64,000 nucleotides of DNA from NCBI GenBank assembly GCA_036510655.1, contig DATCDQ010000008.1:5101-69100 (forward strand), read 5' to 3'. The position numbers and the translations under genes are program-made. Shown one piece after another: positions 11,013 through 55,468 of the stretch. Each line of letters opens with the position of its first letter. The first letter of the stretch is position 1. This DNA is from Microbacteriaceae bacterium (lineage in GTDB: Bacteria > Actinomycetota > Actinomycetes > Actinomycetales > Microbacteriaceae). Below the pieces are notes generated by a model that was not told where the DNA came from, searched no databases, and saw nothing but the letters and a program-made list of their open reading frames with translations.

Positions 11013-11342
11013 TTGCCCCAAATGACCCTTCGCAGCTTGACAATGCCCGTCGTGGGGCCACGCACGGGTCGGGGCATGCCCCGCGGCTGCGAGGCGCGCC
11101 GAATTCAGGCTGGATGCGACATTTTTGGCAGGTTGCTGCCGCGAACCCCCGGTTCAGCCTGAATTTGGTCCGCGGGATGGCCGTAGCGACGATTTCGCTG
11201 GTCGAATAGCGCATGAGCGCAGCGAATGCGCGTATCGAGTCCCACACAGCGACGCAGCAGGTCTCGAGCCGCCACCCCCTCGGTGAGGTGCGGACTTGTG
11301 TCGCTTCCCGCGCTTCGAGAGCGACCGAAGTCCGCACCTCAC
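11013..11342. repeat. Intergenic cluster of four different palindromic/dispersed elements
   Basis: TTGCCCCAAATGACCCTTC at 11013-11031 (a second copy at 41466-41484). AATTCAGGCTG...CAGCCTGAATT inverted repeat at 11102-11165. Family-A REP at 11200-11243. Perfect 16-bp-stem hairpin GGTGAGGTGCGGACTT/AAGTCCGCACCTCACC at 11282-11342. Confidence 0.85.
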
Positions 11343-25808: not shown

Positions 25809-25900
25809 CGCATGAGCGCAGCGAATACGCGTATCGAGACCCACACAGGCGTCGATGGGTCTCGATACGCCCGCTCGCTGCGCTCGCAGGCTACTCGACC
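25799..25900. repeat. Inverted pair of family-A REP-like elements (25799-25842 and 25858-25900)
   Basis: GGTCGAGTAGCGCATGAGCGCAGCGAATACGCGTATCGAGACCC and its near reverse complement. Both convergent genes stop inside the outer arms. Confidence 0.9.
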
Positions 25901-27288
25901 AACGACTCCTGGTAGCGAAAGCTCGCGCCCTTGTGCTCGGCGGGCAGCCGGTCGCCACGTCCGTGCAGCTTCTGCCGGAGCGTACCCGGCGTGTACTCCG
26001 TCTGGTACGCACCGCGCTTCTGCAGTTCGGGGACGACGAATTCCACAACGTCCTCGAACGTCCCGGGTGTGATGGCGTATGCAAGGTTAAAGCCGTCGAC
26101 ATCCGTCTCGGCCACCCACTCCTGAAGCTGGTCCGCGATCTCCGCGCCCGACCCGACGATGAACGGCCCAAGCCCGCCGATCGCACCTTGCGTGCCGATG
26201 TCGCCGACGGTCCACTCGCCGCCGTCTTCGTTGGCTCGCTGATAGTTGGCGACGACCGACTGGATGGCGTTGCTCTTCACGTTGCCGATCGGCTCGTCCA
26301 GACCATACCCGGAGAGGTCGACGCCCATCCAGCCAGACATGAACGTGAGCGCACCCTCCGCGGACGCGTACGACAGATAGTCCTCGTATTTGGCCTGGGC
26401 CTTCTCGGGCGTGGCATCCGTGATGATCGTGAGCAACGTGTATATCCGCGCCGAGTAACGTCCGCGGCCGGCTGCCTCCAACGCATCCCGGATCTTCGTC
26501 ACCGTTGCCTTCAGGCCTTCTTTGGTCGAGGCCGCCACGAAGATCGCCTCCGCGTTGCCGGCCGCGAACGCGATGCCGCGGGAGGATGCGCCGGCCTGGT
26601 AGATCACCGGCGAACGCTGCGGGCTCGGCTCCGAGATGTGGATGCCGGGCACCGTGAAGTTCTTGCCGTAGTGCCCGATTTCGTGCACCTTGCTCGGGTC
26701 GGTGAACACGCCGCTCTCACGATCGCGCACGACTGCGTCGTCTTCCCACGAGCCTTCCCACAGCTTGTAGAGCACCTCGAGGTATTCGTCCGCGTAGTCG
26801 TAGCGGTCGTCGTGCTCCAGCTGGTCGTCGTGACCCATGTTGCGCGCGGCCGACGGCAGGTAGCCGGTGACGACGTTCCACCCGATCCGCCCCTTGGTCA
26901 AGTGGTCGAGCGTGGACATCCGTCGGGCGAACGGATACGGATGCTCGTACGCCGTCCCAGCCGTCACCCCGAACCCGAGATTCTTGGTGACCAGCGCCAT
27001 CGCCGAGATGAGCATCAAGGGGTCGCCGACCGGCACCTGCGCGCCGTGCTTGATCGCAGCTTCGTTGTTGCCGCCGTACACGTCGTAGGTACCGAGCACA
27101 TCGGCGATGAAGATGCCGTCGAACTTGCCGCGCTCCAACAGCTTGGCCAATTCCGTCCAGTACTCCAGGTCGGTATAGCTGGCCGACCGGTCGTCCGGAT
27201 GCCGCCACAGCCCCGAGGACTGGTGCGCGACACAGTTCATGTCGAACGCGTTGAAACGGATCTGGCGGGGCGTGTCGGTCTCAGGCAT
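25891..27288 (-). CDS. LLM-class flavin-dependent monooxygenase (NtaA/SnaA/DszA family)
   Basis: 465 aa, RQIRFNAFDMNCVAHQSSGLWRHPDD...GIFIADVLG, the typical N-terminus of the NtaA/DszA family. Confidence 0.85.
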   Translation of the reverse strand: MPETDTPRQIRFNAFDMNCVAHQSSGLWRHPDDRSASYTDLEYWTELAKLLERGKFDGIFIADVLGTYDVYGGNNEAAIKHGAQVPVGDPLMLISAMALVTKNLGFGVTAGTAYEHPYPFARRMSTLDHLTKGRIGWNVVTGYLPSAARNMGHDDQLEHDDRYDYADEYLEVLYKLWEGSWEDDAVVRDRESGVFTDPSKVHEIGHYGKNFTVPGIHISEPSPQRSPVIYQAGASSRGIAFAAGNAEAIFVAASTKEGLKATVTKIRDALEAAGRGRYSARIYTLLTIITDATPEKAQAKYEDYLSYASAEGALTFMSGWMGVDLSGYGLDEPIGNVKSNAIQSVVANYQRANEDGGEWTVGDIGTQGAIGGLGPFIVGSGAEIADQLQEWVAETDVDGFNLAYAITPGTFEDVVEFVVPELQKRGAYQTEYTPGTLRQKLHGRGDRLPAEHKGASFRYQESLVE

Positions 27289-29506: not shown

Positions 29507-29614
29507 GGTCGAGTAGCGAGGAGCAAGCGTATCGAGACCCGTATCGAGACCCCGGAATTGTTGCCTCCGGGGGTCTCGATACGGCTGCTCGCTATGCTCG
29601 CGGCCTACTCGACC
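29507..29614. repeat. Family-A REP-like inverted pair inside the dnaK operon (29507-29540, 29569-29614; extra half-site at 29541-29553)
   Basis: GGTCGAGTAGCGAGGAGCAAGCGTATCGAGACCC ... GGGGGTCTCGATACGGCTGCTCGCTATGCTCGCGGCCTACTCGACC. Confidence 0.9.
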
Positions 29615-29634
29615 AGCGAGACCAACGACTGCTA

Positions 29635-34454: not shown

Positions 34455-34498
34455 GGGTCTCGATACGCCTGCTCGCTACGCTCGCGGGCTACTCGACC
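34455..34498. repeat. Family-A REP-like element
   Basis: GGGTCTCGATACGCCTGCTCGCTACGCTCGCGGGCTACTCGACC, between the lplA start and the beta-glucosidase stop. Confidence 0.9.
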
Positions 34499-34508
34499 AC
34501 CGGACGCC

Positions 34509-41641: not shown

Positions 41642-42306
41642 ATGGACCTTGGGTCGCCGTCTGCAACGCTTGCAGGGCGAATGGATGCCGCTATCCTGAG
41701 CGTTCTCGCGCGAGCCGACAGCGAATTCGCCGGTCGGCAGATTCACCGGCTCGCAAACTTCGGAAGCTCCTCAGGGGTGAACTCCGCTCTGAATCGGCTC
41801 GTTGAGACGCGCCTCGTCCACTCGACAATTCGACCGTGCGCCATCCTGTACCGCGCTAGCCGGGACCGTGTTCTGTGGCCCGTTGTCGAAGCAGGATTGA
41901 GCGCCGGCGTCGAGTTGCGGAATCGAATTCGGTCGTTCGCCGAGACTTCGTCTCCTCCGGGGGCAACAGTCGCTATCTACGGCTCGGTCGCCCATGGAGG
42001 CGCAAATTCCCAATCGGACATGGACATCGTCATTGTCACCCCGACAATGTTCCTCCAGAGGTATCCGAAGAATTCTCCTATCTGCTTGCCAACAACACGG
42101 AGACGTGGTCCGGCAACATGGCAGATCGCCGGAGCGTGAGGCCACCCGAATGCTGCTATCCGCGGGATTTTGCACTAGTCCGACGCTCAATGGTGACTGC
42201 GAAAGGCACCCCGTCGTGCCTCTTTCCAAGGCGCAGCCCGTGGCAGCGGATCCATGACCGCGGTGCTGCCGGGCGCTGCGTCACCCACAGCGCCGCCCAG
42301 CGGTAG
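41642..42306 (+). pseudogene. wHTH-nucleotidyltransferase (MNT-like) gene, apparently frameshifted
   Basis: Frame A encodes the wHTH and the NTase motif IYGSVAHGGANSQSDMDIVIVTP, then degenerates. The expected continuation DNVPPEVSEEFSYLLANNTETWSGN is in the -1 (= +2) frame (open to 42306). By eye the region has lower GC than its surroundings. Confidence 0.5.
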
Positions 42307-42444
42307 CGCCACCCCCAAAACAGGTGGTTCGCACCAAAGCAGGCGGAAGCCGCCTGTTCTCATGTGAACGCGGCGAATGTGCCTGCATCGTGACACGGGG
42401 AACAGCAGCGGTACCATTCTTATGCCAAATAGGTACTATCAAGT

Positions 42445-42729
42445 ATGGCAACCAATCTCCGACTCCGCCCTGACGTCGCAGCGGCGGTCAAGGCCGAGGC
42501 CGCGCGCACCGGCCGGTCGCAGCAGGACGTCATGCGCGACGCGATCGAGGCCTACCTCACAGCGGATGCAACATCGCCCGGGTCAGCGCCGGTGCCGGAT
42601 GAGGTCGCCGGTCTCGCAAATCTTGGCCTCATTCCGCCGCGAGCCGCATGGCGGCGGGCGGCGACCCGCATCCGCCTTGCACCCGGCGTCTCGTCATCCG
42701 ACCTCCTCGACCGCAAGGATCGGATCTGA
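42445..42729 (+). CDS. Ribbon-helix-helix (CopG-like) antitoxin VapB
   Basis: MATNLRLRPDVAAAVKAEAARTGRSQQDVMRDAIEAYL. Lies immediately upstream of a PIN toxin. Confidence 0.8.
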   Translation: MATNLRLRPDVAAAVKAEAARTGRSQQDVMRDAIEAYLTADATSPGSAPVPDEVAGLANLGLIPPRAAWRRAATRIRLAPGVSSSDLLDRKDRI

Positions 42730-43155
42730 GTGCGCATCTATGTCGGCAGCAGTGCGCTGATCAAACGCGTTGTCGCCGAGCCGGAATCTGATGTGCTCGT
42801 CAGCTACCTTGAGCAATGCGTAGGGGACGGGAACGTCCTCGTCAGTTCTTCGCTTGCGTGGGTCGAAGTGACGCGCGCGCTGCGCACGCGGCTGGACCAC
42901 GAACATCCGTCGACGATCACAGAACTGGCGGATGTCGCGTTGTCCGGCATCTCCGAATTCTCACTGGATGCTCGCGTTGTCGCGCTTGCCCGCCGCATCG
43001 GGCCGCCGATCCTTCGAACTTTGGATGCGCTTCATCTCGCGAGCGCGACCCTGCTCGACGCAGATGTCATGGTCGTGTACAATCAGCGTCTCGCTGCCGC
43101 TGCCGACGAACTCGGCATCCGAACGATTGCGCCGGGGGCTTCGCCGGTCGAGTAA
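42730..43155 (+). CDS. vapC: Type II toxin VapC (PIN domain)
   Basis: IYVGSSALIKRVVAE...LRTLDALHLASA...VVYNQRL. The final GTC GAG TAA lies in a REP element. Confidence 0.8.
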   Translation: MRIYVGSSALIKRVVAEPESDVLVSYLEQCVGDGNVLVSSSLAWVEVTRALRTRLDHEHPSTITELADVALSGISEFSLDARVVALARRIGPPILRTLDALHLASATLLDADVMVVYNQRLAAAADELGIRTIAPGASPVE

Positions 43156-43189
43156 CCCGCGAGCGCAGCGAGCGAGCGTATCGAGACCC
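43146..43189. repeat. Family-A REP-like element
   Basis: GGTCGAGTAACCCGCGAGCGCAGCGAGCGAGCGTATCGAGACCC. Confidence 0.9.
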
Positions 43190-43202
43190 CGTTCGCCGGT
43201 TG

Positions 43203-43720
43203 TCAGCGTTCCGCAGCGAGGATGCGGTCGCAGAGCTCCATCGTGTGCACGTTGTCGCGGCCACTGTTCGTCGCCTCCGAGACGGCCACCGCCGGATCGG
43301 CGAAGGCGCGCAGTCCCTCGACGAATCCGCGCAGATGCAGGTCGCGCTCAAGAACGACGGCAGACCCGTCAGGTTGAGCGTGCCGATCACGCCAGAGGCG
43401 AAGCGCAGGCTGACCGCCAGCGCCACCAGGTTCCCGACCGAATTGTTCCGGGTGTGCACGTCGGCCACCTCGCCGAACAGCTACCGCAAGAGATCGACGA
43501 CGTGAATTGCCGCCAGCTTCAGGTAGTCGTCCTCGTTGGCGCAGAATGTGGTGCTGCCGCATCCGAAGCCCAGTCGGAACGAGTGGATCGGCCCGAGCGG
43601 CTTCTCGACGAAGACATTCTTGCCGGCGGCGATCGCTTGGCGGACGAGCCGGGCCTGGTCATCCGGCTGGGCAACAATCACGACATTGCCTTCAGGCAGC
43701 GCGATGCCGTGCCTTAGGAT
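43203..43720 (-). pseudogene. Gfo/Idh/MocA oxidoreductase remnant (truncated and frameshifted)
   Basis: Fragments in three frames: IVAQPDDQARLVRQAIAAGKNVFVEKPL (43481-43681), VGNLVALAVSLRFASGVIGTLNL, and a C-terminal piece ending at 43203. The Rossmann N-terminus is absent next to the tRNA. Confidence 0.6.
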
Positions 43721-43752
43721 AGTTGTCGATCGTCGGCGCGTCCGTCGAGCAT

Positions 43753-43823
43753 GCGGATGTAGTTCAATGGCAGAACTTCAGCTTCCCAAGCTGATAGCGC
43801 GGGTTCGATTCCCGTCATCCGCT
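43753..43823 (+). tRNA. tRNA-Gly (anticodon CCC)
   Basis: Hand-folded cloverleaf: acceptor GCGGATG/CATCCGC, D arm GTTC-AATGGCA-GAAC, anticodon arm TCAGC-TTCCCAA-GCTGA, T arm GCGGG-TTCGATT-CCCGT, discriminator T. Confidence 0.9.
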
Positions 43824-44009
43824 CTACCAGTAAAGTCCCGGTCAGAGCCTCTTTTTGAAGGAGATTCTGGCCGGGACTTCTTCACGTAGACAGGCCGTTC
43901 GTGCCCTTCGCGTGCCCAAAGGTACAAACTTTGATACAGAAAACGGCCTTCCAGACACCACTAGGTACCTAGTGGTACATTCGAGAGTAACCAACCAAAG
44001 GGGGCACCC

Positions 44010-44213
44010 ATGGCCATGAATCTGCGCCTCGACACAGCGCACGAAGAATTGCTGAATGCTCTCGCTGCACAGGAGCGTCGGACGAAGACTGAGATCGTCA
44101 AGATCGCAATCGAAGAGCGTGCCGCCAAGGCCGACAAGAGCACCCGCACCAGAGCGATCTTCGAGCGCATCATGCAGGAAGACGCTGAACTGCTCGACGC
44201 TCTCTCCAAGTGA
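44010..44213 (+). CDS. Orphan ribbon-helix-helix protein (antitoxin-like)
   Basis: MAMNLRLDTAHEELLNALAAQERRTKTEIVKIAIEERA. AAGGGGG RBS. A 20-bp perfect palindrome lies upstream. Confidence 0.7.
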   Translation: MAMNLRLDTAHEELLNALAAQERRTKTEIVKIAIEERAAKADKSTRTRAIFERIMQEDAELLDALSK

Positions 44214-44241
44214 CGGAGCATCTGGAGCCCTCCGACGTCAC

Positions 44242-44890
44242 TCAGACTCCCGGCGCACCCTTCTTCATGGCTGCGCTCATGCCGTCTGCGATGATGCGTC
44301 CACGCTCTTCGGCAGCGTGCTGATACTTCATCGCTGCTGATGATGTGGAGTGCCCCGCGCGTGACATCAATTCTCGAATCGTCGCTCCGGACTGAGCGGC
44401 CAGCGTGTGTCCGCGTCCGCTGTGGCGGAGGTCGTGGAAGTGGTATTGGGGGAGCTGCACTGCGGTCCGGGCCTTCTTGAAGGCGTGTTGGAGCTGCGCC
44501 CTGGTGAGAGCCTTCCCATCAGCCCGGATGAATAGCGGAGCGGACGGCAACGCCTTCGGCACCGTCGCGAGGTACTCGATCATCGTCTCGACAGTGACCA
44601 GGCGGCGTAGCCTCCTGGTAGCGCGGCCCAGATAGCAGCGCATCTTGACTACATCTGTGTGAAATAGTCAGACGGCTGGTTGCTTTCGAGCGGAATCGTT
44701 CCTCGCGTCTTCCGGCCCGTTCGCGAGGAAGCTGCCCTTAAGGGGCAATTCTTCACGATCTGATCGGGAGCGCGGAGGCGAGCCGAATGCGCCCATGTGG
44801 TCGGTTTGGGGGCCCGCAGACGGCCCAGAACGACCACATGGCCGCACTCGGCGTGCTCTTGCGGGTCGTCGCGAGAGAATCGACCGGTCG
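44242..44890 (-). mobile_element. Tyrosine recombinase (phage-type integrase) remnant
   Basis: The 44242-44643 ORF holds only the C-terminal catalytic part (HFHDLRHSG...GHSTSSAAMKYQH). A possible upstream piece (KTRGTIPLES) is in another frame. The N-terminal domain is missing. Confidence 0.7.
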
Positions 44891-44897
44891 CTCGCCA

Positions 44898-45356
44898 CTA
44901 CGCGGCGGCTGACAAGCGCTCGCGGGTCGCTTGCGGGTCGATCGGCAGTGCGGCCAGCAGCGCGGCCGCCGGGTCGGGCTCGCGCCGGTCGAGCAGGGCG
45001 AGCATCATGTGCCGAGTCGTGATCGTTCGGGCCTTCTCCGCCGTCGCAGTGAGGATGGTCTGATGCAGCACAGCCTTGACCCCCGCGGTCAGCGGCACTC
45101 GCGTGCCGAGGGCGGCGTGCGCGGTCGGTGCGGGGTCGGCTTCCAGTCCGATTGCGGCGAGCGCTGAGCGATCGAGCTGGTCGGCCGTGTCATGCGCGGT
45201 CTCGGCATCGACACCGACAATTCCCGCTAGCTCGTCATCCCGCAGCAGTGCGATCAGCAAGTGCTCGGTGCCGATCCTTCGATCGCCCCGGCGCCCCGCT
45301 TCGTAGCGGGCGTCGTCGATGGCGATCCGTGCGGGTCGCGCAAATCTCTCAAACAT
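44898..45356 (-). CDS. Clp_N (ClpA/B N-terminal repeat) domain protein
   Basis: MFERFARPARIAIDDARYEAGRRGDRRIGTEHLLIALL, followed by a second repeat ITTRHMMLALL. Confidence 0.75.
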   Translation of the reverse strand: MFERFARPARIAIDDARYEAGRRGDRRIGTEHLLIALLRDDELAGIVGVDAETAHDTADQLDRSALAAIGLEADPAPTAHAALGTRVPLTAGVKAVLHQTILTATAEKARTITTRHMMLALLDRREPDPAAALLAALPIDPQATRERLSAAA

Positions 45357-45597
45357 CGCTGCTCTCCCTCTCACCTTTCTTCTGGCTGTCTCCGCGCTTG
45401 CCATACTTCGCGTGCACCGACTGGCGTGTGACACCGAGTGCGTCGCCAATCTGTTCCCACGACCATCCCGCGCGCCGCGCCTCGGCGACATGCGTCGCCT
45501 CGACGCGCTCAGCGAGCCGATGCAGCGCGCCGACGGCGCGCAAACCTATCATCGGATCGGTCGTGCGCAACTGCTGTGCGAACTCCGGTGGTTCCAT
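45349..45597 (-). CDS. Small HTH DNA-binding protein
   Basis: AGWSWEQIGDALGVTRQSVHAKYGK HTH. 8-nt overlap with the Clp_N gene. Confidence 0.65.
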   Translation of the reverse strand: MEPPEFAQQLRTTDPMIGLRAVGALHRLAERVEATHVAEARRAGWSWEQIGDALGVTRQSVHAKYGKRGDSQKKGERESSDV

Positions 45598-45985
45598 ACT
45601 GTCAGTCTGACTTGACACTGTAGTTTTGTCAACTCAGGCTGACGTGATGATCGATTACCCTCAACCCGAAAGCTTCCCCGCGGATGTCGATGTCGCGATC
45701 GCCGGCGACGCCGGCCGCTACTTTCGCCCGCGGCTCATTCAGTGTGCGCGAAATGCTGGAATGAATCGCCAATCGGACATTCTGCGCACATTGAACGCCT
45801 GGGTGCCCGGCGCCAAGCGGGCGGAATGCATGAATTGGGCGGGAGTGCATGAATTGGGCGTGAATCGGAATTAACCTGAGCAGAGTGGCCGCGAAGTACG
45901 TAACTAATGCGGGTACTCGCGAGAGCATCGGCCGGTCGCTCGCCGCTGCGCCCCTGACTGAGCGGATTCCCGCCCGACCGGCGGT

Positions 45986-46678
45986 CTAGGCTCCCCTCGA
46001 TACGCGCCTCAACGGCGCGTTCAGCAGCGGAACGATGACCTCGTCAACCAACTCCACGACGTCGAAGCCATCGAGCTCACGGAACAGAAAGTGGTTCCGC
46101 AGGATCGATGGCCCTGCCTCGAGTCGACGCCGCGTGACATGCGTACCGTCGAGCTCACCGCGCGCGACGGCACGCATCACGATCGTGCGCAGACTCTCCA
46201 CGGCGCCGTCGCGCGAGTAGTCCCGCACGCGGCGGGCCTGGTCAGCGTCGATGAGCGCCTCCCCGTGCAGGGCACGCAGCGCGTCGCCGAGCGCCCCAGA
46301 CAGCGGCACCATCGCCGTCGTCAGCATCTCGATCAGGTCGCCGCGGAGCGTGCCCGTCTCGGGAACGAGTTGCTCGGTCGGCAACGCATCGTAGACGGCA
46401 TCCATCACCAATTCGGTGCGCGTCGGCCAGCGCCGATACAAGGATGCCTTACCCGTGTGTGCCCGCTTGGCTACCGTTTCCATTGTCAGCGCAGCGTAGC
46501 CGTGACGCGTCAGCTCGGTCAGCGTCGCCTCATAGATGGCGGCGGTGAGGGCGGCCCCGCGCCGCCGAGTCCGCGCGCGATGGTCGCCGGTGGTCGGCGC
46601 CGTTGCGGCCACGGTTGCGGCCACCGCCCCGGCTGCCCCCGTCGCAGTTGCCCCTGCCGCCGCTACCACCGCCGTCAT
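45986..46678 (-). CDS. TetR family transcriptional regulator
   Basis: IYEATLTELTRHGYAALTMETVAKRAHTGKASLYRRWPTRTELV. ATGA overlap with the upstream gene. Confidence 0.85.
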   Translation of the reverse strand: MTAVVAAAGATATGAAGAVAATVAATAPTTGDHRARTRRRGAALTAAIYEATLTELTRHGYAALTMETVAKRAHTGKASLYRRWPTRTELVMDAVYDALPTEQLVPETGTLRGDLIEMLTTAMVPLSGALGDALRALHGEALIDADQARRVRDYSRDGAVESLRTIVMRAVARGELDGTHVTRRRLEAGPSILRNHFLFRELDGFDVVELVDEVIVPLLNAPLRRVSRGA

Positions 46679-49212
46679 GACGCCGTCACGACCCCGACTC
46701 CACCATCCACCGTGACGCGTTGCCCCGTACGCAGCGTTCGCGTGCCGTCCCCCGTGCCCATAATTGCGGGGATGCCGATCTCGCGCGCCACAATCGCGGC
46801 ATGCGAACCGATGCCCCCGGTGTCCACCACGACAGCCGCAGCGCTCTGGAACAGTGGAGTCCACGCGGGGTTTGTGTATGGACACACCAGAATCTCGCCG
46901 GGACGCAGCATGCCGAACTCGTCTGGCCCGTTGATGATGCGCACCGTTCCCGTCGCCCGCCCGGCGCAGGCCGGCGTTCCGCTGACCAAGGCATTCTGGT
47001 CACGGCCCGGGCGCCCGAAGATCGCCGCGTAGTCGACCATCCGCACGGATGAGAGCTGCTCGCGTTTCAGTTTCCGCGCCAGCACCCTCGCGCGCAGCTC
47101 CTCCACGCGCGCCGGGGCGAGCGTCGCCGCGTCGTCGATCGTCTCCAGTTCGCCGAGCCGCAGGTGGAAGACGTCGGCCGGTTCTGACAACACACCGGCG
47201 TCGCGCAGGCGAGTGCCGATCTCGAGGAGCGCGCGACGAAGCGGGGGGAGCGTGCGCATGAACGCGTCGTGAGAATCCTCACGGAATCCGATGCCGGCCC
47301 GAGCCGCCCGGATGCGCCGCCACATCCGCTCGCGCGCCCTCGGCGCTTGCAGGCGGCGATGTGCAAACAGCGCTTCCTCGGCATCCGCCGCCCGCGTGGC
47401 CACCGGGCGTTCGCTGTCGTCGGAGGCGAGCAGCGCAATCAGCCCGAGCACGGTTTCCGGAGCTTCGCTCCAGGTTGGGGAGGAGGCGAGCACGGGGCTG
47501 ATCGTCTCGCGGTGCCCGTACTCCTCGAGGTACTCGGCAAACGCGCTCGCGAAACCCGCAAACGCTGGATCGCTGGTGACGCGCTCGAGGGCGGCACGCG
47601 CATCCTGCTCGGTGAGCAAGGTGCGGAGCGTGGCATCCGCCCGCACGCTGTCGGCGAGCTCGCCGAGTCGTTCGTTTCCGCGCGCAGTAATCGTTGGGGC
47701 GCCGATGATGAGATCGCCCATCAGTCGGGTGCGCCGTAGCCGGATGAGCGCGAGGCGCAACCGAATGATCGCGACCGCCATGCCGGGCAGGTACTGCGTG
47801 CGCAGCGTCGTGATCGGGGCGACCAGTTCGAGGGCGGTGTGAACGGATGCAACGAGCTCCGGCCAGGTCGCGGTGGCCGGATCCCTGCCCGCGATGTCCT
47901 GCAGTCGCCGGTCGAAGTCGGCATAGCGAGGGTCCTTCGTCCATTGGGCCGGATCGTAGCGACGTGCGCGTGCCCGCACGCTGAACGGCGCCCTGACCAC
48001 ACGCCACGTCGGTGACGGCATCGGCGGCACGAACTGCACGACGACGCCGTCCTCTTCGGGAAGGATGCTCTCGAAGTTCGAGCGGATGCCGACACTCGCC
48101 ATCACGCGACCCATCATTCCGAGCGGGCCGTATGGAATCCAGGTGTCCATGTCGAGTGGGTACGGGCGCACGCTGAAGTAGTCGCTGAACACGCTGCCGA
48201 TGAGCCGCTGCACCCTGTTCAGCTTCTGCGGGATCGGAACTGCTGTCATCGGGCGAGCTTGGAGCAGCGCGAGCCCGTTGTTGGCGATCGCCCACTCGAT
48301 GTCTTGCGGGCTGCCAAAGTGCTCTGCGACCGCCTGCCCGAGGGATGCCAGTTCGGCGAGCAGCGCGTTGGACAGCAGCGGCATACCCGCCGAGGCGCCG
48401 GCCAGGGCGCCGGCCGGGGCACCCTCGGAGTGGGTCACGCCGCCATGCCCGTCGCTGCTGATGACGACTTCGCGTTTGCCGGGTGAGAATTCGAGAGTGC
48501 GGCCCGCGCTGTCGATCACGTAGTGGTCCGGCGTCACCAGCCCGGAGACGACGGCTTCGCCGAGCCCCGAGCTCGCGTCGATCACGAGGCGGTCGCGAGC
48601 GCCGGTCACCGGATCGGCGGTGAAGAGCACGCCCGCGACATCCGCTGGAACCAGGGACTGAACGACAACGGCGATCGCCACATCGGCCGGGTCAATCGAC
48701 AGTCGTCGACGGTAGGCGATCGCCCGTTCGTTCCACAGCGACGCCCAGCACGCGCGCACCGCGGCGAGCATCGCATCGGCCCCGACCACGCCGAGGTAGG
48801 TGTCTTGCTGCCCGGCGAATGCCGCGCCCGGGAGATCTTCGGCAGTCGCGCTTGAGCGCACGGCGACGATGCCGCCGAGCCGGGCGTACGCATCCGCGAT
48901 CGTCGCGGCCGTCTGCTCGGGTAGTTGCAGGGCGGTGATTGCGGCGCGCAGTGCTGCGCCGTCATCGGTGAGGTTGTGCGTGGCATGCGGGTCGTGCGGG
49001 TCGCCAACGCTCAGCCCGGCGGTCTCCATGGCGGAGCGGTACGCATCCGTCGTGACGATGAATCCGGCTGGGACAGGGAATCCAGCACGAACCAACTCAC
49101 CCAGATTGGCGCCTTTGCCGCCGGCCAGTGCAATGTCGTCGCGGCCGACTGAGCCAAGGTCGACGACGGCGCGCACGGAGGGCGACGCTGATTTCGATCG
49201 TGCCTGCGACAT
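46675..49212 (-). CDS. PEP-utilising enzyme family phosphotransferase, rifampicin phosphotransferase (RPH)-like architecture
   Basis: N-terminal PPDK_N/ATP-grasp (IALAGGKGANLGELVRAGFPVPAGFIVT), a long central region, and a C-terminal swivel His domain (VVDTGGIGSHAAIVAREIGIPAIMG). About 845 aa. Confidence 0.7.
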   Translation of the reverse strand: MSQARSKSASPSVRAVVDLGSVGRDDIALAGGKGANLGELVRAGFPVPAGFIVTTDAYRSAMETAGLSVGDPHDPHATHNLTDDGAALRAAITALQLPEQTAATIADAYARLGGIVAVRSSATAEDLPGAAFAGQQDTYLGVVGADAMLAAVRACWASLWNERAIAYRRRLSIDPADVAIAVVVQSLVPADVAGVLFTADPVTGARDRLVIDASSGLGEAVVSGLVTPDHYVIDSAGRTLEFSPGKREVVISSDGHGGVTHSEGAPAGALAGASAGMPLLSNALLAELASLGQAVAEHFGSPQDIEWAIANNGLALLQARPMTAVPIPQKLNRVQRLIGSVFSDYFSVRPYPLDMDTWIPYGPLGMMGRVMASVGIRSNFESILPEEDGVVVQFVPPMPSPTWRVVRAPFSVRARARRYDPAQWTKDPRYADFDRRLQDIAGRDPATATWPELVASVHTALELVAPITTLRTQYLPGMAVAIIRLRLALIRLRRTRLMGDLIIGAPTITARGNERLGELADSVRADATLRTLLTEQDARAALERVTSDPAFAGFASAFAEYLEEYGHRETISPVLASSPTWSEAPETVLGLIALLASDDSERPVATRAADAEEALFAHRRLQAPRARERMWRRIRAARAGIGFREDSHDAFMRTLPPLRRALLEIGTRLRDAGVLSEPADVFHLRLGELETIDDAATLAPARVEELRARVLARKLKREQLSSVRMVDYAAIFGRPGRDQNALVSGTPACAGRATGTVRIINGPDEFGMLRPGEILVCPYTNPAWTPLFQSAAAVVVDTGGIGSHAAIVAREIGIPAIMGTGDGTRTLRTGQRVTVDGGVGVVTAS

Positions 49213-49268
49213 ATGGCCAGCCTTCAATAGTGAACTGCGCGTTCTCTATCAGGATAGTCGAATGCCGT

Positions 49269-49314
49269 GGTCACGCATACAAGGTGGGGTCACGCAGACG
49301 TCTGCGGGTCACGC
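49269..49314. promoter_or_regulatory. Three GGTCACGC direct repeats at an exact 19-bp period, overlapping the palindrome CGCAGACGTCTGCG
   Basis: Copies at 49269, 49288 and 49307, in the 92-nt spacer between the NUDIX stop and the RPH-like start. Confidence 0.4.
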
Positions 49315-49319
49315 CGACG

Positions 49320-49769
49320 TCATGGGTATGCGCCGAATCGGGTCAGGTAGTCGATCAGGCTATCGGTGAGCGGCAGTGCCCGCAGCTCGTCTGCCGTGAA
49401 CCACCGCGCGTCCGCCGCATCGTCACCGGCGATCGGGTGCTCCGTGCCGCGGTCCTCAGCGACCGTCCGCTCAGCGGAAGCGTCGACAGCGTGCCCATCG
49501 GCGAGCTCTGCCCAGAAATCGTGGATCTCGAAGATGCGGCCATCCGCGGTCGGTGAGTCGAGGCATCCGATTTCGCGGACCGCCCGCACGATTAGCCCGG
49601 TCTCCTCGAGCACTTCGCGCTCTGCGGCTTCAGCAAGGGTCTCGCCGGGCTCGAGTTTGCCTCCGGGGATGCTCCAGCGGCCGGCTTGCGGCGCATCCGC
49701 TCGGAGCACCAGCAGGAAGCGCCCGTCGCGGTCTTTGACCACCGCACCTGCGGCGAGCACCCGATCCAT
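49320..49769 (-). CDS. NUDIX hydrolase
   Basis: [24 protein letters not shown] Nudix box. Confidence 0.85.
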
Positions 49770-50172
49770 GGCTTGAGTGTACGTTCACGCGGGCAGCTCG
49801 TACATGGTGCGCAAAGTGCTCTGAGGATTGAGGCGAAGAGCACTTTGCGCCGCAGCAATACAGCCCGGACTCGAGCCCTCCGACAAGTGGTGCAGAGACT
49901 GCTGTGGGCGGGCAGCCGAAACAGCAGCTCGCGCGCCAGTAACGCTCCAGCGCACGAACGACGCACCCCGCGACGCCCATGCCTCAAGGGATCACCGCCG
50001 CGGCAGTGCCTGGCGGGACGCCCGAGCAGCGCCCGGCCCGAAGATACCAACTGTGCGAATGCTGCCGATCGCGACGGTGCCCGATGTCGTTCGCAGCTCG
50101 GCGAAGTCCTCCGTCGAACACGCGGCGGGCAGGTCGAGCGCACGTTCACGCGGCCACAGCCCTGGTGAGCCG

Positions 50173-51174
50173 CTACCCGCCGCGGAGGGCGCGGTTGACC
50201 ATGAACTCCACCGCTTCGTTCATGTTGATGGGGTTCAGCGTGGTGCCTGGATGTTGCGCCGGCCACACACGGAGCACTTCATCGACGAAGCCTTGGCCTA
50301 CGTCCTCGACGCCGGCGAAGTCGACGTCGATGTCCCCGAATGTGTCCATACCGTCGAGCAAACGGCGGGCCTCGGAACGGGAGACGAAGCTTATTCCAGC
50401 ACCGAACAGCTTGACCGCCGGTCGGCTTTTCGCGAACGACTGCTCGCCATCGGTGAACTGTTCGAACACGGCGCGCAGGGTATGCGCTGCCGGGCGCGGA
50501 ATGCTTACCTTTACCACCGTTCCTGTGCTCACCCTGGATATTCCGAGCGCAACATCGCCCCTGGCGTTGTCAAAGGTGAGCCGCAAGCCGTTCGCCGAAA
50601 GGCGGAGCACTCCGACGGCCTTCGATGTGAAGAAGATTCCTTCTCCCGTATGCCGCTCTTTGAATGTCGTACGTTTCCCTTTGGTGAGCTCGCCGGCAGA
50701 CTCGATGTCCCTGTCAAGTCCGAGTCCGGACCGGATGCGCGCGAACACCCCCACGCCGTCATCCGCGATCCGGAATGCAAGCTCGTGCTGAGACGACCAC
50801 ACTTGGATGTTGGCGGATGTGCCGCCACTGTGGTCAATTGCGTTGTTCAGCATTTCGGTGAAGCCGTATGCAGCAACGCGCCCGTCCTCAGTCCTCCGAT
50901 CAATCTGAAGGGTGTCCGCGGCAATTGTCCACACTTGATCTTCATGTAGCCCGTCCAGCGCAAAGTCAGCTTCCCAGTCAGGCGGCGAGATCGGTAGTAT
51001 CGATGCCTCGGGAATCCGCCCGGATAGCGAACCCCTAACCGCATCGAGGTCGAAAACACGGTGTCCGCCCGGCGTGCGGCTTGACGGGATCTGCCCGCTG
51101 TCTGCCATTCTCCGCAGCGTCTTGATCGGGAGACCAAGCGAGTCGCTCAATTCGCCGATCCGAATCTCGTTCAT
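50173..51174 (-). CDS. HTH (MerR/excisionase-type) - GHKL ATPase (HATPase_c) - STAS-like DUF4325 protein
   Basis: MNEIRIGELSDSLGLPIKTLRRMADSGQIPSSRTPGGHRVFDL. N-box EMLNNAIDHS, G1 box IADDGVGVF, G2-like GEGIFFTSK. The C-terminal VSRSEARRLLDGMDTFGDIDVDFAGVEDVGQGFVDEVLRVW is DUF4325-like. Confidence 0.65.
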   Translation of the reverse strand: MNEIRIGELSDSLGLPIKTLRRMADSGQIPSSRTPGGHRVFDLDAVRGSLSGRIPEASILPISPPDWEADFALDGLHEDQVWTIAADTLQIDRRTEDGRVAAYGFTEMLNNAIDHSGGTSANIQVWSSQHELAFRIADDGVGVFARIRSGLGLDRDIESAGELTKGKRTTFKERHTGEGIFFTSKAVGVLRLSANGLRLTFDNARGDVALGISRVSTGTVVKVSIPRPAAHTLRAVFEQFTDGEQSFAKSRPAVKLFGAGISFVSRSEARRLLDGMDTFGDIDVDFAGVEDVGQGFVDEVLRVWPAQHPGTTLNPINMNEAVEFMVNRALRGG

Positions 51175-51408
51175 GTAATCTCCCTCAGCCGGGAGATTCG
51201 CCGTTCGTAAATCTACCCGCACGGGTAGATTATTTCAGACAGAGTCGTTAAACCTCCCCCTTCGGGTATGTTTGCGCCGGCGCCTCGTCAAAACCTCCCC
51301 GCTCGTGGAGATTCTGCCCGCGCCCATCAGGCAACCACAGTGGTCACCCCTCCGCACAGATCGATTGGGCGATGCGGTGTCATGGTTAAACGCGATTGAC
51401 GTGCACAC

Positions 51409-54026: not shown

Positions 54027-54668
54027 TCACGCTGTGGATGCCGCCCCCAGCACCACTCGCCCCATCACGTGATCGACAAGCCCGTATTCCAGCGCCGCGT
54101 GTGCAGTGAAAACCCGGTCACGATCGGTGTCCCGCCGCAGCGTCTCGACCGACTGCCCCGTATGCGCTGACAAGATCCCTTCAAGCTCGGCTCGGATGCG
54201 CACCACCTCGTCGGCCTGCAAGATCAAGTCGGGAATCGTGCCCCGCCCCTGCGCAGCCGGCTGATGCATAACCACCCGCGTGTGCGGCAGCACGGCGCGG
54301 CGCCCCGGAGCACCGGCGGCCAGCAGCACGGCACCGGCAGCAATCGCCTGCCCCACGCACGTGGTCGCTACCGGCGCCTGAATGTACTGCATTGTGTCGT
54401 ACACGGCGAGCATCGAGGTCATATCGCCGCCCTCGCAGTTGATGTAAAGGTTGATCTCGCGCTCGGAGTTGTCCGCCTCCAAATGCAACAGCTGGGCGAT
54501 GAGCGCATTGGCCACGCCCGAATCGATCGCAGTGCCCAGATAGATGATGCGCTCAGTCAAGAGGTGAGAATAGACATCCATGATTCGCTCGCCACGCGAG
54601 TTCTGCGTGATCACGTTCGGGATCATGTAGTTGTTCATAGTCGTGTTGTTCATGCTCGTGTTGCTCAT
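54027..54668 (-). CDS. ClpP-family subunit lacking the catalytic serine (ClpR-like)
   Basis: Clear ClpP fold sequence (RIIYLGTAIDSGVANALIAQLLHLEADNSEREINLYINCEGG, VMHQP, EYGLVDHV). The nucleophile motif reads GQAIAAGAVLL (codons GCG ATT GCT GCC GGT) where ClpP has G-x-A-A-S-M-G. Confidence 0.8.
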   Translation of the reverse strand: MSNTSMNNTTMNNYMIPNVITQNSRGERIMDVYSHLLTERIIYLGTAIDSGVANALIAQLLHLEADNSEREINLYINCEGGDMTSMLAVYDTMQYIQAPVATTCVGQAIAAGAVLLAAGAPGRRAVLPHTRVVMHQPAAQGRGTIPDLILQADEVVRIRAELEGILSAHTGQSVETLRRDTDRDRVFTAHAALEYGLVDHVMGRVVLGAASTA

Positions 54669-55285
54669 GCGTCCACCCCCAGTCCGACGTGCCGCCGTTT
54701 GGGCGGCATGACCTGCTCGAACGAGTCGACCACGTGATCGATGAATCCGTACTCCTGCGCCTCAGCAGCCGTGTACCAGCGGTCGTGCAGCGAGTCCTCG
54801 AAAACACGCTCGACGCTCTGGCCGGTGTCCTCGGCAACAAGGCCGAGCACGGTGTCCCGCGTGAAACGCAGATCGTCGGCTTGCACCTCGACCTCGACAG
54901 CGGAGCCGCCGATGCCCGCAGATCCCTGATGCATCAGAATGCGCGCGTGCGGCAGCGCGAACCGCTTGCCCTTCGCGCCGGACGACAGCAGGAATTGCCC
55001 TGCGCTGCACGCCAACCCGAGGGCGAGCGTGCTGACGTCACACGGCACGAGCCGCATCACGTCCCGGATCGCGAGCATCGCCGGCACCGAGCCGCCGGGC
55101 GAGTGAATCCACAGTGCGATATCTGCGGATGCGTCCTCAGCCGCAAGCGTCAGCAGTTGCGTTGCAAGCAGCGTTCCATTGTCGTCGTCGAGCACACCGT
55201 CGAGCACGAGGATGCGCTCGTGCAGCAACTGTGCGCGCATCCGGTCAGAGAAGGCAGGGTTCTTGGTGTTGTCGTCGTCAGCCAT
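54665..55285 (-). CDS. clpP: ATP-dependent Clp protease proteolytic subunit (ClpP paralog, triad intact)
   Basis: ILVLDGVLDDDNGTLLATQLLTLAAEDASADIALWIHSPGG, GLACSAGQFLL (Ser), ILMHQG (His), HDRWYTAAEAQEYGFIDHV (Asp). 4-nt overlap with the downstream paralog. Confidence 0.85.
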   Translation of the reverse strand: MADDDNTKNPAFSDRMRAQLLHERILVLDGVLDDDNGTLLATQLLTLAAEDASADIALWIHSPGGSVPAMLAIRDVMRLVPCDVSTLALGLACSAGQFLLSSGAKGKRFALPHARILMHQGSAGIGGSAVEVEVQADDLRFTRDTVLGLVAEDTGQSVERVFEDSLHDRWYTAAEAQEYGFIDHVVDSFEQVMPPKRRHVGLGVDA

Positions 55286-55361
55286 GTCACCAGACTGCGG
55301 CAAGCGTGACGGGTTGAACCCGTCGTACTGCTGTCAGCAGATCTGCTGACAGCAGACAGCC

Positions 55362-55468
55362 GTCTCGATACGCGGATTCGCTGCGCTCATGCGCTACTCG
55401 ACGAACGGTACCGGTGGTCGAGTAGCCCGCGAGCGCAGCGAGCGAGCGTATCGAGACCCGTGCAGTTC
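55362..55468. repeat. Family-A REP-like inverted pair (55362-55402 and 55425-55468)
   Basis: GTCTCGATACGCGGATTCGCTGCGCTCATGCGCTACTCGAC ... GGTCGAGTAGCCCGCGAGCGCAGCGAGCGAGCGTATCGAGACCC. Confidence 0.9.

What the first reader, a model, noticed from the sequence alone, without database searches (positions are those of the whole stretch)
54027..55303. Accessory ClpP pair in which one subunit has lost the catalytic serine (ClpR-like)
Two overlapping clpP paralogs sit away from the usual tig-clpP1-clpP2-clpX context. A REP pair and a lyase gene lie upstream, a convergent ferredoxin lies downstream, and no clpX or clpC is nearby.

The upstream paralog keeps Ser (GLACSAGQFLL), His (MHQG) and Asp (HDRW). 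The downstream paralog is unmistakably ClpP-like but reads GQAIAAGAVLL where the nucleophile motif G-x-A-A-S-M-G should be. The codon is GCT, so Ser is replaced by Ala, while His (VMHQP) and Asp (DRDRVF) are retained. It also has an unusual Asn-rich N-terminus (MSNTSMNNTTMNNYM).

Proteolytically dead ClpR subunits are established in cyanobacteria and plastids. I do not recall them being described for actinobacterial ClpP heterocomplexes, where ClpP1 and ClpP2 are both active. This could be a mixed active/inactive Clp core with specialised substrates. A Clp_N-domain protein is encoded about 9 kb away.
Basis: partly seen in the sequence, partly recalled or inferred. Interest (0 to 1): 0.72.

Follow-up and report, generated by a model that had tools for sequence, protein, structure and literature searches.

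The report
Backup Clp protease with dead ring
This is an accessory pair of ClpP protease genes, of the regulator-controlled "backup" kind known from Streptomyces, in which the second subunit has lost its catalytic serine, and related subunits in many other actinobacteria have also lost a catalytic residue.

Summary
Two clpP genes overlap by 4 bp on the minus strand. The upstream one (54665-55285) keeps Ser94/His119/Asp168. The downstream one (54027-54668) has Ala110 (GCT, 54339-54341) where every solved ClpP has the nucleophile Ser.

It is not an error. All 80 related genome loci carry the same pair. The downstream subunit has Ala in 57, Gly in 17 and Ser in 6; the upstream subunit keeps Ser in 79.

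Just upstream lie two 15-bp-spaced palindromes, TCTGCT-N3-AGCAGA, matching the published PopR operator of the Streptomyces lividans clpP3clpP4 operon. Most relatives also have a convergent PopR-like regulator ending in LAA.

Streptomyces ClpP4 itself keeps Ser but has His->Gly, and other ClpP4-type lineages lost other triad residues. Both window genes are under strong purifying selection (dN/dS about 0.05).

Most likely this is a PopR-type backup Clp core with a catalytic ClpP3-like ring and a non-catalytic ClpP4-like ring that docks the unfoldase.

The family is known. I found no paper noting its triad decay. The resemblance to ClpR is analogy, not membership. The Asn-rich N-terminus is a strain-specific 30-nt duplication. 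The Clp_N gene is not linked by synteny.

The parts
54665..55285 (-). clpP3-like (ClpP1-type) gene, 206 aa, with an intact triad: Ser94 (55004-55006), His119 (54929-54931), Asp168 (54782-54784). An alternative TTG start lies at 55303.
   Evidence: PF00574 hit at E 1e-53. Best solved relatives are M. tuberculosis ClpP1, with the triad in register. The start at ATG 55285 matches the R. soli annotation and the conserved CATGGCT in 80 loci.
54027..54668 (-). clpP4-like (ClpP2-type) gene, 213 aa. Its start overlaps the upstream stop (ATGA). It has Ala110 at the nucleophile position; His135 and Asp184 are kept. Its family hallmark is NCEGG in place of NSPGG (Cys78).
   Evidence: PF00574 hit at E 4e-66. 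Gapless alignment to solved ClpPs. Triad table. NCEGG is present in 311 of 321 family members. dN/dS against R. soli is 0.049.
54339..54341 (-). GCT codon for Ala110, at the position of the catalytic serine.
   Evidence: Related loci use GCG, GCC or GCA (Ala), GGC, GGG or GGT (Gly), or rarely TCG or TCC (Ser) at this codon.
54630..54670 (-). In-frame tandem repeat of a 15-nt unit, 2.7 copies. It adds 10 residues (MSNTSMNNTT) to the N-terminus of the ClpP4-like protein.
   Evidence: Tandem Repeats Finder result. A 30-nt gap appears in the alignment with R. soli, whose protein starts MSNYMIPNV.
55327..55356 (-). Tandem PopR-type operator. In gene orientation it reads TCTGCT-GTC-AGCAGA | TCTGCT-GAC-AGCAGT. 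The two 15-bp palindromes abut and end 42 nt upstream of the ATG.
   Evidence: The same tandem sits at the same offset in 31 of 80 related loci, and at least one site in 56 of 80, against 11 sites in 1.23 Mb elsewhere. It matches the S. lividans PopR site quoted in PMC9775585 and the S. fungicidicus clpP3 promoter.
55292..55297 (-). A -10-like hexamer, CAGTCT, with 6 nt between it and the ATG. This suggests a leaderless transcript. This is inferred.
   Evidence: The block CA-NNN-T + 6 nt + ATG is conserved across the 80 loci, for example GCAGGCTGGAGGCATGGCT. The generic sigma-70 scan found nothing, as expected for an activator-dependent actinobacterial promoter.

Best explanation
The locus is a self-contained, PopR-type regulated accessory Clp protease core operon of the clpP3-clpP4 kind.

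The upstream gene encodes a ClpP1/ClpP3-type subunit with a complete Ser-His-Asp triad. The translationally coupled downstream gene encodes a ClpP2/ClpP4-type subunit that is a natural pseudo-protease, with Ala110 in place of the nucleophile.

The two most likely assemble as a hetero-tetradecamer of one ring of each. All peptide-bond cleavage would occur in the ClpP3-like ring. The ClpP4-like ring keeps the canonical N-terminal hairpin sequence and would act as the docking and gating ring for the housekeeping unfoldases ClpX and ClpC.

Transcription is predicted to depend on a PopR-like activator that binds the tandem operator. That activator carries a C-terminal LAA degron and would be destroyed by the housekeeping ClpP1P2 protease. 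The pair would therefore be switched on only when the main Clp protease fails or is inhibited.

Shown here:
- gene anatomy and the Ser->Ala substitution
- conservation of the substitution across the family
- the operator and its conservation
- regulator synteny in relatives
- purifying selection on both genes

Inferred:
- ring composition
- which ring docks the ATPase
- the inducing condition
- the existence of a PopR gene elsewhere in this genome
For: 1. The Ser->Ala substitution is real, and its alignment to the catalytic Ser is gapless.

2. All 80 genome loci carry the same overlapping pair. The P4-like triad is A-H-D in 56, G-H-D in 17, S-H-D in 6 and A-D-D in 1. The P3-like triad is S-H-D in 79 of 80. 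Of 240 protein hits, 209 have Ala, 18 Gly and 10 Ser; the other three have Thr, Gln, or no aligned residue.

3. dN/dS against R. soli is 0.049 for the Ser-less gene and 0.042 for its partner. The overall identity of 71-86% across the genera confirms that the Ser-less protein is functional.

4. The tandem operator is conserved at a fixed offset. It matches the published PopR site (PMC9775585) and the S. fungicidicus clpP3 promoter.

5. A convergent XRE-type HTH gene sits directly downstream in 48 of 80 loci, and also in Streptomyces, Tsukamurella and Prescottella. Of 120 homologues of this regulator, 108 end in LAA.

6. Streptomyces ClpP4 also has a broken triad (His->Gly) in 15 of 15 sampled members of a 1534-member cluster. 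Other P4-type lineages read G-H-Q, W-H-D, A-H-P and A-S-?.

7. In the neighbour-joining tree, the P4 types group apart from canonical ClpP2, and the P3 types group with ClpP1/ClpP3.

8. In Streptomyces ClpP1P2, only the ClpP1 Ser is needed. ClpP2-S131A is fully active, and ClpP2 is the ring that binds ClpX, ClpC1 and ClpC2 (PMC9765437).

9. The canonical tig-clpP1-clpP2-clpX locus, with full triads, coexists with an accessory pair on one Tsukamurella record.

10. No AAA+ gene is a conserved neighbour.
Against: - No popR-like gene lies in the 64-kb window or in the 20-kb R. soli locus. A homologue search did not surface a Rathayibacter PopR. The activator in this genome is therefore assumed.
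- Sequence identity to Streptomyces ClpP4 is only 58%. A related upstream subunit (Tsukamurella) is 49% identical to ClpP3, which is not clearly closer than to M. tuberculosis ClpP1. Orthology rests mainly on operon architecture and the operator.
- The neighbour-joining tree has no support values.
- His and Asp are kept in about 98% of this family, and a Cys in NCEGG in about 97%. This could hint at a residual or altered chemistry.
- A few members, mainly Kribbella, still have Ser.
- I could not confirm that this genome also has the canonical clpP1P2 locus.
Confidence: 0.72

Rival explanations
1. The two subunits do not work mainly with each other but cross-pair with housekeeping subunits. For example, the ClpP3-like subunit might pair with ClpP2, or ClpP1 with the Ser-less ClpP4-like subunit. 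The dead subunit would then act as a modulator or replacement docking ring for the main protease, much as ClpP-ADEP pairs with ClpP2 in S. hawaiiensis.
For: PMC12607617 shows that an accessory ClpP1-type protein can form an active core with housekeeping ClpP2. The ClpP4-like protein belongs to the ClpP2/ClpP4 branch, so cross-pairing with a ClpP1-type ring is conceivable (inference).
Against: The two genes are translationally coupled by a 4-bp overlap and were found together in all 80 loci. They show matching evolutionary rates. In Streptomyces, ClpP3 and ClpP4 can sustain viability without ClpP1P2 (PMC9765437). All of this points to a self-sufficient pair.
Confidence: 0.1
2. The ClpP4-like subunit is still catalytic and uses another nucleophile. 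The candidate is the conserved Cys78 of the NCEGG motif, next to the oxyanion-hole glycines, acting with the retained His135 and Asp184.
For: Cys is present in 311 of 321 family members. His and Asp are retained in about 98%, although Ser is gone.
Against: - The Cys replaces the Ser of NSPGG, which is not the nucleophile position. Ten members have Ser there.
- Sister P4-type lineages lose His or Asp instead. This fits relaxed selection on catalysis as a whole.
- His and Asp also have structural roles in ring-ring coupling (established ClpP knowledge).
- Engineered ClpP Ser->Ala variants are inactive traps.
Confidence: 0.05
3. This is simply the organism's only, housekeeping ClpP1P2 pair, with rearranged synteny and a tolerated Ala variant.
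For: The rest of the genome could not be searched. ClpP2's Ser is dispensable in Streptomyces, so a housekeeping ClpP2 might in principle lose it.
Against: - The pair carries the PopR-type operator rather than the tig/clpX context.
- It clusters with P3/P4-type proteins, away from canonical ClpP1 and ClpP2.
- Identity to M. tuberculosis ClpP2 is only 46-47%.
- A Tsukamurella record has both a canonical tig-clpP1-clpP2-clpX locus with full triads and an accessory pair.
- Nocardia, Mycolicibacterium and Actinomadura also carry the accessory pair. From general knowledge, not tested here, these genera have canonical loci.
Confidence: 0.05
4. The Ala is a strain-specific SNP, a sequencing error or a sign of pseudogenisation.
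For: None beyond the prior possibility.
Against: The same residue is present in R. soli and in most of 80 genomes and 240 proteins. dN/dS is 0.049. The reading frame is intact over its full length, and Pfam coverage is 2-180 of 182 positions.
Confidence: 0.01
5. The pair is a target-duplicate self-resistance determinant of a biosynthetic gene cluster that makes a ClpP-directed natural product.
For: Accessory clpP genes do serve this role in some Streptomyces clusters (PMC12607617).
Against: The neighbours here are a CoA-transferase, an HMGL-like lyase, a ferredoxin, an MFS transporter and a dienelactone hydrolase. The flanks differ among the 80 loci, and the only conserved neighbour is the HTH regulator.
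Confidence: 0.02

Closest known systems
Streptomyces lividans/coelicolor clpP3-clpP4 operon with its activator PopR (Viala et al. 2000 and 2002, as summarised in PMC9765437 and PMC9775585)
   Same: - A bicistronic, overlapping pair with the ClpP1-type gene first and the ClpP2-type gene second.
- A tandem TCTGCY-N3-RGCAGA operator just upstream.
- In most relatives, a convergent XRE-type regulator ending in LAA.
- An accessory position away from tig and clpX.
- A second subunit with a broken triad.
   Different: - Identity is only 58% to ClpP4. A related upstream subunit (Tsukamurella) is 49% identical to ClpP3.
- The residue lost here is Ser (to Ala), whereas Streptomyces ClpP4 keeps Ser and has His->Gly.
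- This family has NCEGG and LWIHSPGG motif variants.
- No popR gene lies next to the pair in this window or in R. soli.
Housekeeping ClpP1P2 of Streptomyces and Mycobacterium
   Same: Both are two-ring hetero-tetradecamers with a division of labour. In Streptomyces, ClpP1 does the catalysis and ClpP2 docks the ATPases, and ClpP2-S131A is fully functional (PMC9765437). The subunit types and gene order are the same.
   Different: Both housekeeping subunits keep full triads. Their genes lie between tig and clpX, and they are controlled by ClgR rather than by the PopR-type operator.
ClpR of cyanobacteria and plastids
   Same: It is a ClpP paralogue without proteolytic activity that is built into a mixed Clp core.
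   Different: By established knowledge and PMC4673316, ClpR lacks the catalytic triad, belongs to a different lineage, and is mixed with ClpP3 within the same ring. Here only Ser is replaced, and a ring-per-subunit architecture is expected.
Listeria monocytogenes ClpP1 (Asn in place of the triad Asp)
   Same: It is a naturally imperfect triad in one partner of a ClpP1P2 heterocomplex.
   Different: The Listeria triad becomes aligned and active inside the heterocomplex (cited in PMC9765437). An Ala cannot be rescued as a nucleophile in that way.
Engineered ClpP Ser->Ala 'trap' variants
   Same: They carry the same substitution at the same position. By established knowledge, such variants still assemble and bind the unfoldases.
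   Different: They are laboratory mutants of homo-oligomeric ClpP, not a naturally fixed and conserved state.

Membership tests
ClpP / peptidase family S14 (PF00574) | Full-length ClpP fold by sequence profile | tested here: met
   Both proteins hit PF00574, at E 4e-66 and 1e-53, covering nearly the whole profile. They align without gaps over about 190 residues to solved ClpPs.
ClpP / peptidase family S14 (PF00574) | Ser-His-Asp catalytic triad | tested here: not met
   The upstream subunit has S94/H119/D168, so the feature is met there. The downstream subunit has A110/H135/D184, so the nucleophile is missing. The downstream protein is a family homologue but should not be called an active peptidase.
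clpP3-clpP4/PopR accessory operon (Streptomyces type) | Bicistronic pair with the ClpP1-type gene first and the ClpP2-type gene second, outside the tig-clpX locus | tested here: met
clpP3-clpP4/PopR accessory operon (Streptomyces type) | Tandem PopR operator (TCTGCC-N3-GGCAGA type) in the promoter | tested here: met
   The window has it at 55327-55356. It is conserved across the related loci. It matches the site in PMC9775585 and the S. fungicidicus clpP3 promoter.
clpP3-clpP4/PopR accessory operon (Streptomyces type) | Adjacent popR gene (ClgR paralogue with a C-terminal Ala-Ala degron) | tested here: not met
   It is absent from the window and from the R. soli flank. It is present in 48 of 80 relatives, and 108 of 120 homologues of it end in LAA. 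A copy elsewhere in this genome could not be searched for.
clpP3-clpP4/PopR accessory operon (Streptomyces type) | Orthology of the proteins to Streptomyces ClpP3 and ClpP4 | tested here: inconclusive
   The P4-like protein groups with Streptomyces ClpP4 and away from ClpP2. The P3-like protein falls in the ClpP1/ClpP3 branch but not next to ClpP3. The tree is neighbour-joining without support values. Identities are 58% and 49%.
clpP3-clpP4/PopR accessory operon (Streptomyces type) | Expression only when ClpP1P2 is absent or inhibited, with PopR degraded by ClpP1P2 | not testable with these tools
   This needs expression and degradation experiments.
ClpR (cyanobacteria and plastids) | Loss of the catalytic triad as a whole, and membership of the cyanobacterial/plastid ClpR lineage | tested here: not met
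   Only Ser is replaced; His and Asp are kept. The protein branches within the actinobacterial ClpP2/ClpP4 group. No ClpR sequence was included in the tree.
ClpR (cyanobacteria and plastids) | Incorporated as an inactive subunit in a mixed Clp core | not testable with these tools
   This is inferred from gene coupling and from the Streptomyces ClpP1P2 precedent. No assembly data exist for this pair.

The most novel reading that the evidence does not exclude
ClpP4-type subunits across Actinomycetota are natural pseudo-proteases. The second ring of the PopR-controlled backup Clp core has repeatedly and independently lost different triad residues:
- Ser->Ala, Gly or Trp in the large clade that includes this window
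- His->Gly in Streptomycetaceae
- Asp->Gln or Pro, and His->Ser, in smaller lineages

Throughout, the protein stays under strong purifying selection. The backup core would therefore run on seven active sites by design. It might be intrinsically insensitive to active-site-directed ClpP2 poisons. As far as I could find, this has not been described.
Probability: 0.45. Interest if true: 0.7.

Novelty: new variant of a known kind. Interest (0 to 1): 0.55.

Why it matters
Clp proteases are essential drug targets in actinobacteria, for example for ADEPs, beta-lactones and cyclomarins.

Experiments in 2022 showed that the ClpP2 active site is dispensable in Streptomyces ClpP1P2. The data here suggest that evolution has repeatedly taken this to its end point in the paralogous backup core. 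A whole ring is catalytically dead yet highly conserved, and this is seen in Nocardia, Mycolicibacterium, Tsukamurella, Actinomadura, Streptomyces and Microbacteriaceae.

This gives a natural system for asking what a ClpP ring does apart from catalysis, such as unfoldase docking, gating and allosteric activation of the partner ring. It also bears on how such bacteria may escape inhibitors that hit the housekeeping ClpP1P2.

For annotation, these proteins should not be labelled as active proteolytic subunits.

Tried and rejected
- **ClpC-like unfoldase.** I suspected the 850-aa ORF at 46675-49227 might be one. It is a PPDK_N/PEP-utilizers enzyme.
- **Clp_N protein as a partner.** I checked the protein at 44898-45491. 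It lies in a stretch that is not syntenic with R. soli and is not a conserved neighbour. Rejected.
- **popR in the window.** I searched with five different PopR-like queries. The only hit was a LacI-family gene.
- **Rathayibacter PopR by homologue search.** None appeared among the best 120 hits. Inconclusive.
- **Representative-library search.** It returned many frameshifted or fused fragments. Cluster look-ups gave no names. It was useful only for spotting further triad-defective lineages.
- **Generic sigma-70 scan.** It found no promoter.
- **Literature.** Several searches for any mention of triad loss in ClpP4 or accessory actinobacterial ClpPs found nothing. The primary Viala, Gominet and Compton papers are not in the library.
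- **Structure prediction.** Not run. The fold is not in doubt, and coordinates cannot be inspected here to test the Cys78 idea.
- **Rejected readings.** Sequencing error or pseudogene, biosynthetic-cluster self-resistance, and ClpR membership. The reasons are given under the rival explanations and the membership tests.
Full report
**The observation**

Two ORFs on the minus strand, at 54665-55303 and 54027-54668, overlap by ATGA. Both are full-length PF00574 Clp_protease proteins.

The upstream protein aligns best to M. tuberculosis ClpP1, with Ser (GLACSAG), His (LMHQG) and Asp (LHDRW) in register. The downstream protein aligns without gaps over about 190 residues to solved ClpPs. Its Ala110 in GQAIAAGAVLL lies exactly on the catalytic Ser of GQAASMGALLL. 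His135 and Asp184 are kept. The Ala codon is GCT at 54339-54341.

The window contains no other clpP, no tig and no clpX. The flanking genes are a family III CoA-transferase and an HMGL-like lyase upstream, and a convergent ferredoxin, an MFS transporter and a dienelactone hydrolase downstream.

Three details need correction:
- The upstream gene most likely starts at ATG 55285 (206 aa).
- The 'REP pair' is two separate features (see the section on regulation).
- The Asn-rich N-terminus is a 30-nt in-frame tandem duplication of a 15-nt unit (54630-54670). It is missing from the closest relative, whose protein begins MSNYMIPNV.

**Not an error, and not rare**

The closest named genome is Rathayibacter soli CP133020.1. 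It is 95% identical at the protein level, has the same synteny, and has the same Ala.

A scan of species-representative genomes found at least 575 loci that encode a relative. The 80 that were kept span:
- Microbacteriaceae
- Nocardia
- Mycolicibacterium
- Kribbella
- Actinomadura
- Streptosporangium
- Nonomuraea
- Embleya
- Glycomyces
- Oerskovia
- other genera

All 80 carry the same two-gene unit, mostly with the 4-bp overlap.

In a joint alignment, the triads are as follows:

| Subunit (80 loci) | Triad state | Loci |
|---|---|---|
| Upstream (P3-like) | S-H-D | 79 |
| Downstream (P4-like) | A-H-D | 56 |
| Downstream (P4-like) | G-H-D | 17 |
| Downstream (P4-like) | S-H-D | 6 |
| Downstream (P4-like) | A-D-D | 1 |

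Among 240 protein hits, 209 have Ala, 18 Gly and 10 Ser. The few Ser codons (TCG, TCC; mainly Kribbella) are one step from the common GCG and GCC.

Against R. soli, dN/dS is 0.049 for the Ser-less gene and 0.042 for its partner. Identity stays at 71-86% across the genera. The Ser-less protein is therefore functional and tightly constrained.

**What the pair is: regulation**

The 190-bp region upstream of the pair holds two things.

The first, at 55362-55457, is an inverted repeat with 48-nt arms. Its unit recurs at several other places in the window, so it is a genuine REP-like element.

The second, at 55327-55356, reads in gene orientation TCTGCT-GTC-AGCAGA | TCTGCT-GAC-AGCAGT. These are two abutting 15-bp palindromes.

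The strict pattern CTGCY-N3-RGCAG occurs within 200 bp upstream of the first gene in 56 of 80 related loci. In 31 of them it occurs as the same 15-bp-spaced tandem, always at the same offset. Only 11 sites occur in the other 1.23 Mb of those loci.

The motif matches the operator reported for PopR, the activator of the S. lividans clpP3clpP4 operon: TCTGCC-3N-GGCGAATCTGCC-3N-GGCAGA (PMC9775585, citing Viala 2000).

The only conserved neighbour of the pair is an XRE-type HTH gene. It lies convergently just downstream in 48 of 80 loci. Of 120 homologues of this regulator, 108 end in LAA. That is the kind of C-terminal Ala-Ala degron through which ClpP1P2 degrades PopR and ClgR in Streptomyces (PMC9775585, PMC9765437).

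Between the operator and the ATG, the loci share a CA-NNN-T hexamer followed by 6 nt and the ATG. In the window this is CAGTCT at 55292-55297. This suggests a leaderless, activator-dependent promoter (inference).

**Link to Streptomyces ClpP3P4**

A Streptomyces fungicidicus plasmid carries the arrangement clpP, clpP, then a convergent HTH gene. Its promoter contains the published PopR operator letter for letter, and its regulator ends in LAA. One member of its first-gene cluster is named 'proteolytic subunit 3' by its source.

Its second subunit, ClpP4, keeps Ser (GQAASTAAVLL) but reads ARVLLGQP where ClpPs have HQP. The catalytic His is replaced by Gly. The same holds in Streptomyces sp. N50, in Kitasatospora, and in 15 of 15 sampled members of a 1534-member cluster.

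Other ClpP4-type lineages have lost other residues:
- a Prescottella equi plasmid pair, which also has the operator and the HTH gene, reads G-H-Q
- metagenomic lineages read W-H-D, A-H-P and A-S-?

In a neighbour-joining tree, all these second subunits group together, apart from canonical ClpP2 proteins with full triads. The first subunits fall with ClpP1 and ClpP3 (no support values).

A related upstream subunit (Tsukamurella) is 49% identical to ClpP3 and 46% to ClpP1.

One Tsukamurella record contains both a canonical tig-clpP1-clpP2-clpX locus with full triads and, about 17 kb away, an accessory pair plus HTH gene with A-H-D. The accessory pair is therefore an addition to the housekeeping genes, not a replacement.

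**How it most likely works**

Published work on Streptomyces ClpP1P2 shows three things (PMC9765437):
- the core is a hetero-tetradecamer
- only the ClpP1 Ser is required (ClpP2-S131A is fully active in vitro and in vivo)
- ClpX, ClpC1 and ClpC2 dock on ClpP2

The ClpP4-like protein here keeps the canonical N-terminal segment, YxIPNVIxQxxRGERxxDVYSHLL. This matches the E. coli axial hairpin sequence (from memory). The ClpP3-like protein lacks that segment, as M. tuberculosis ClpP1 does.

I therefore propose a 7+7 core. The ClpP3-like ring does all the cleavage. The ClpP4-like ring is a non-catalytic docking and gating ring for the housekeeping unfoldases. No AAA+ gene is a conserved neighbour.

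Expression would follow the Streptomyces logic. PopR is continuously destroyed by ClpP1P2, so the pair is made only when the main protease fails (PMC9765437, PMC12607617).

The sequence features, conservation, operator, synteny and selection are shown here. The assembly, the docking side, the inducing signal and the presence of PopR in this genome are inferred.

**Weak points**

- No popR gene lies in the window or in the R. soli flank. A homologue search did not reveal a Rathayibacter PopR.
- I could not search the rest of the genome for the canonical locus.
- His, Asp and a Cys in the family-specific NCEGG motif (in place of NSPGG) are each kept in about 97-98% of members. This leaves a small chance of altered chemistry rather than none.

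**Rivals**

- Cross-pairing with housekeeping subunits is possible. It is made less likely by strict gene coupling and co-occurrence.
- The 'only ClpP locus' reading is contradicted by the operator, the tree and the Tsukamurella example.
- An SNP, sequencing error or pseudogene is excluded by the orthologues and by dN/dS.
- A role in biosynthetic-cluster self-resistance is not supported by the variable, non-biosynthetic flanks.

**Comparison and novelty**

The system works like the Streptomyces ClpP3P4/PopR backup. It resembles ClpR-containing cores only by analogy, and it is not a ClpR. Only one triad residue is lost and the lineage is different.

The family is widely present in databases as 'ClpP family protease', and its Streptomyces member is well studied genetically. 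In the searchable literature I found no statement that ClpP4-type subunits lack triad residues. The primary papers from 2000-2013 are not in the library, so prior mention cannot be excluded.

I rate this a new variant of a known kind. It is of moderate interest for the window itself, and of higher interest if the family-wide pseudo-protease ring proves to be unreported.

Noticed in passing
window 55362-55457; further copies at 43146-43187, 25800-25901, 34457-34503, 11201-11239 and 29573-29615: A REP-like dispersed repeat. At 55362-55457, two units form an inverted repeat with 48-nt arms (81% complementary) between the HMGL-like gene and the clpP operator. Single units of about 40 nt recur across the window.
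   Followed up: partly
L082 3992-4594 (S. fungicidicus plasmid p1), L084, L085; proteins P0513-P0527: Streptomyces and Kitasatospora ClpP4 keep the nucleophile Ser but have the catalytic His replaced by Gly (ARVLLGQP). This held in all 15 sampled members of a 1534-member cluster. I found no mention of this in the searchable literature.
   Followed up: yes
L086 2492-3091 (Prescottella equi plasmid p1-WH99); proteins P0244, P0265, P0278: Further ClpP4-type lineages have other triad defects: G-H-Q, W-H-D, A-H-P and A-S-?. The P. equi pair also has a downstream HTH gene and a PopR-type half-operator.
   Followed up: partly
window 54630-54670: A 15-nt unit is repeated 2.7 times in frame at the 5' end of the ClpP4-like gene. 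It adds 10 residues ahead of the conserved N-terminal hairpin sequence. The effect on processing or gating is unknown.
   Followed up: partly
window about 42000-51300: This stretch holds an integrase fragment (44242-44643), an orphan Clp_N-domain protein (44898-45491), a TetR-like gene, a PPDK_N/PEP-utilizers enzyme (46675-49227), a NUDIX gene and a MerR-HATPase-DUF4325 protein (50173-51222). It is not syntenic with the R. soli flank, so it may be an acquired island.
   Followed up: partly
L083 and L088 (NZ_LR134452.1, Tsukamurella tyrosinosolvens 'plasmid 10'): The record is labelled a plasmid but carries tig, clpP1, clpP2, clpX, obgE, proB and valS. It looks like a piece of chromosome.
   Followed up: no
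proteins P0393-P0512 (homologues of the PopR-like regulator of L052): 108 of 120 end in LAA, an ssrA-like C-terminal degron. This suggests that proteolytic feedback control of this regulator is general in Actinomycetota.
   Followed up: partly
window 54435-54437 (Cys78) and the family alignment: The near-universal NSPGG motif next to the oxyanion hole is NCEGG in 311 of 321 ClpP4-like proteins. The partner subunit has LWIHSPGG instead of LYINSPGG.
   Followed up: partly
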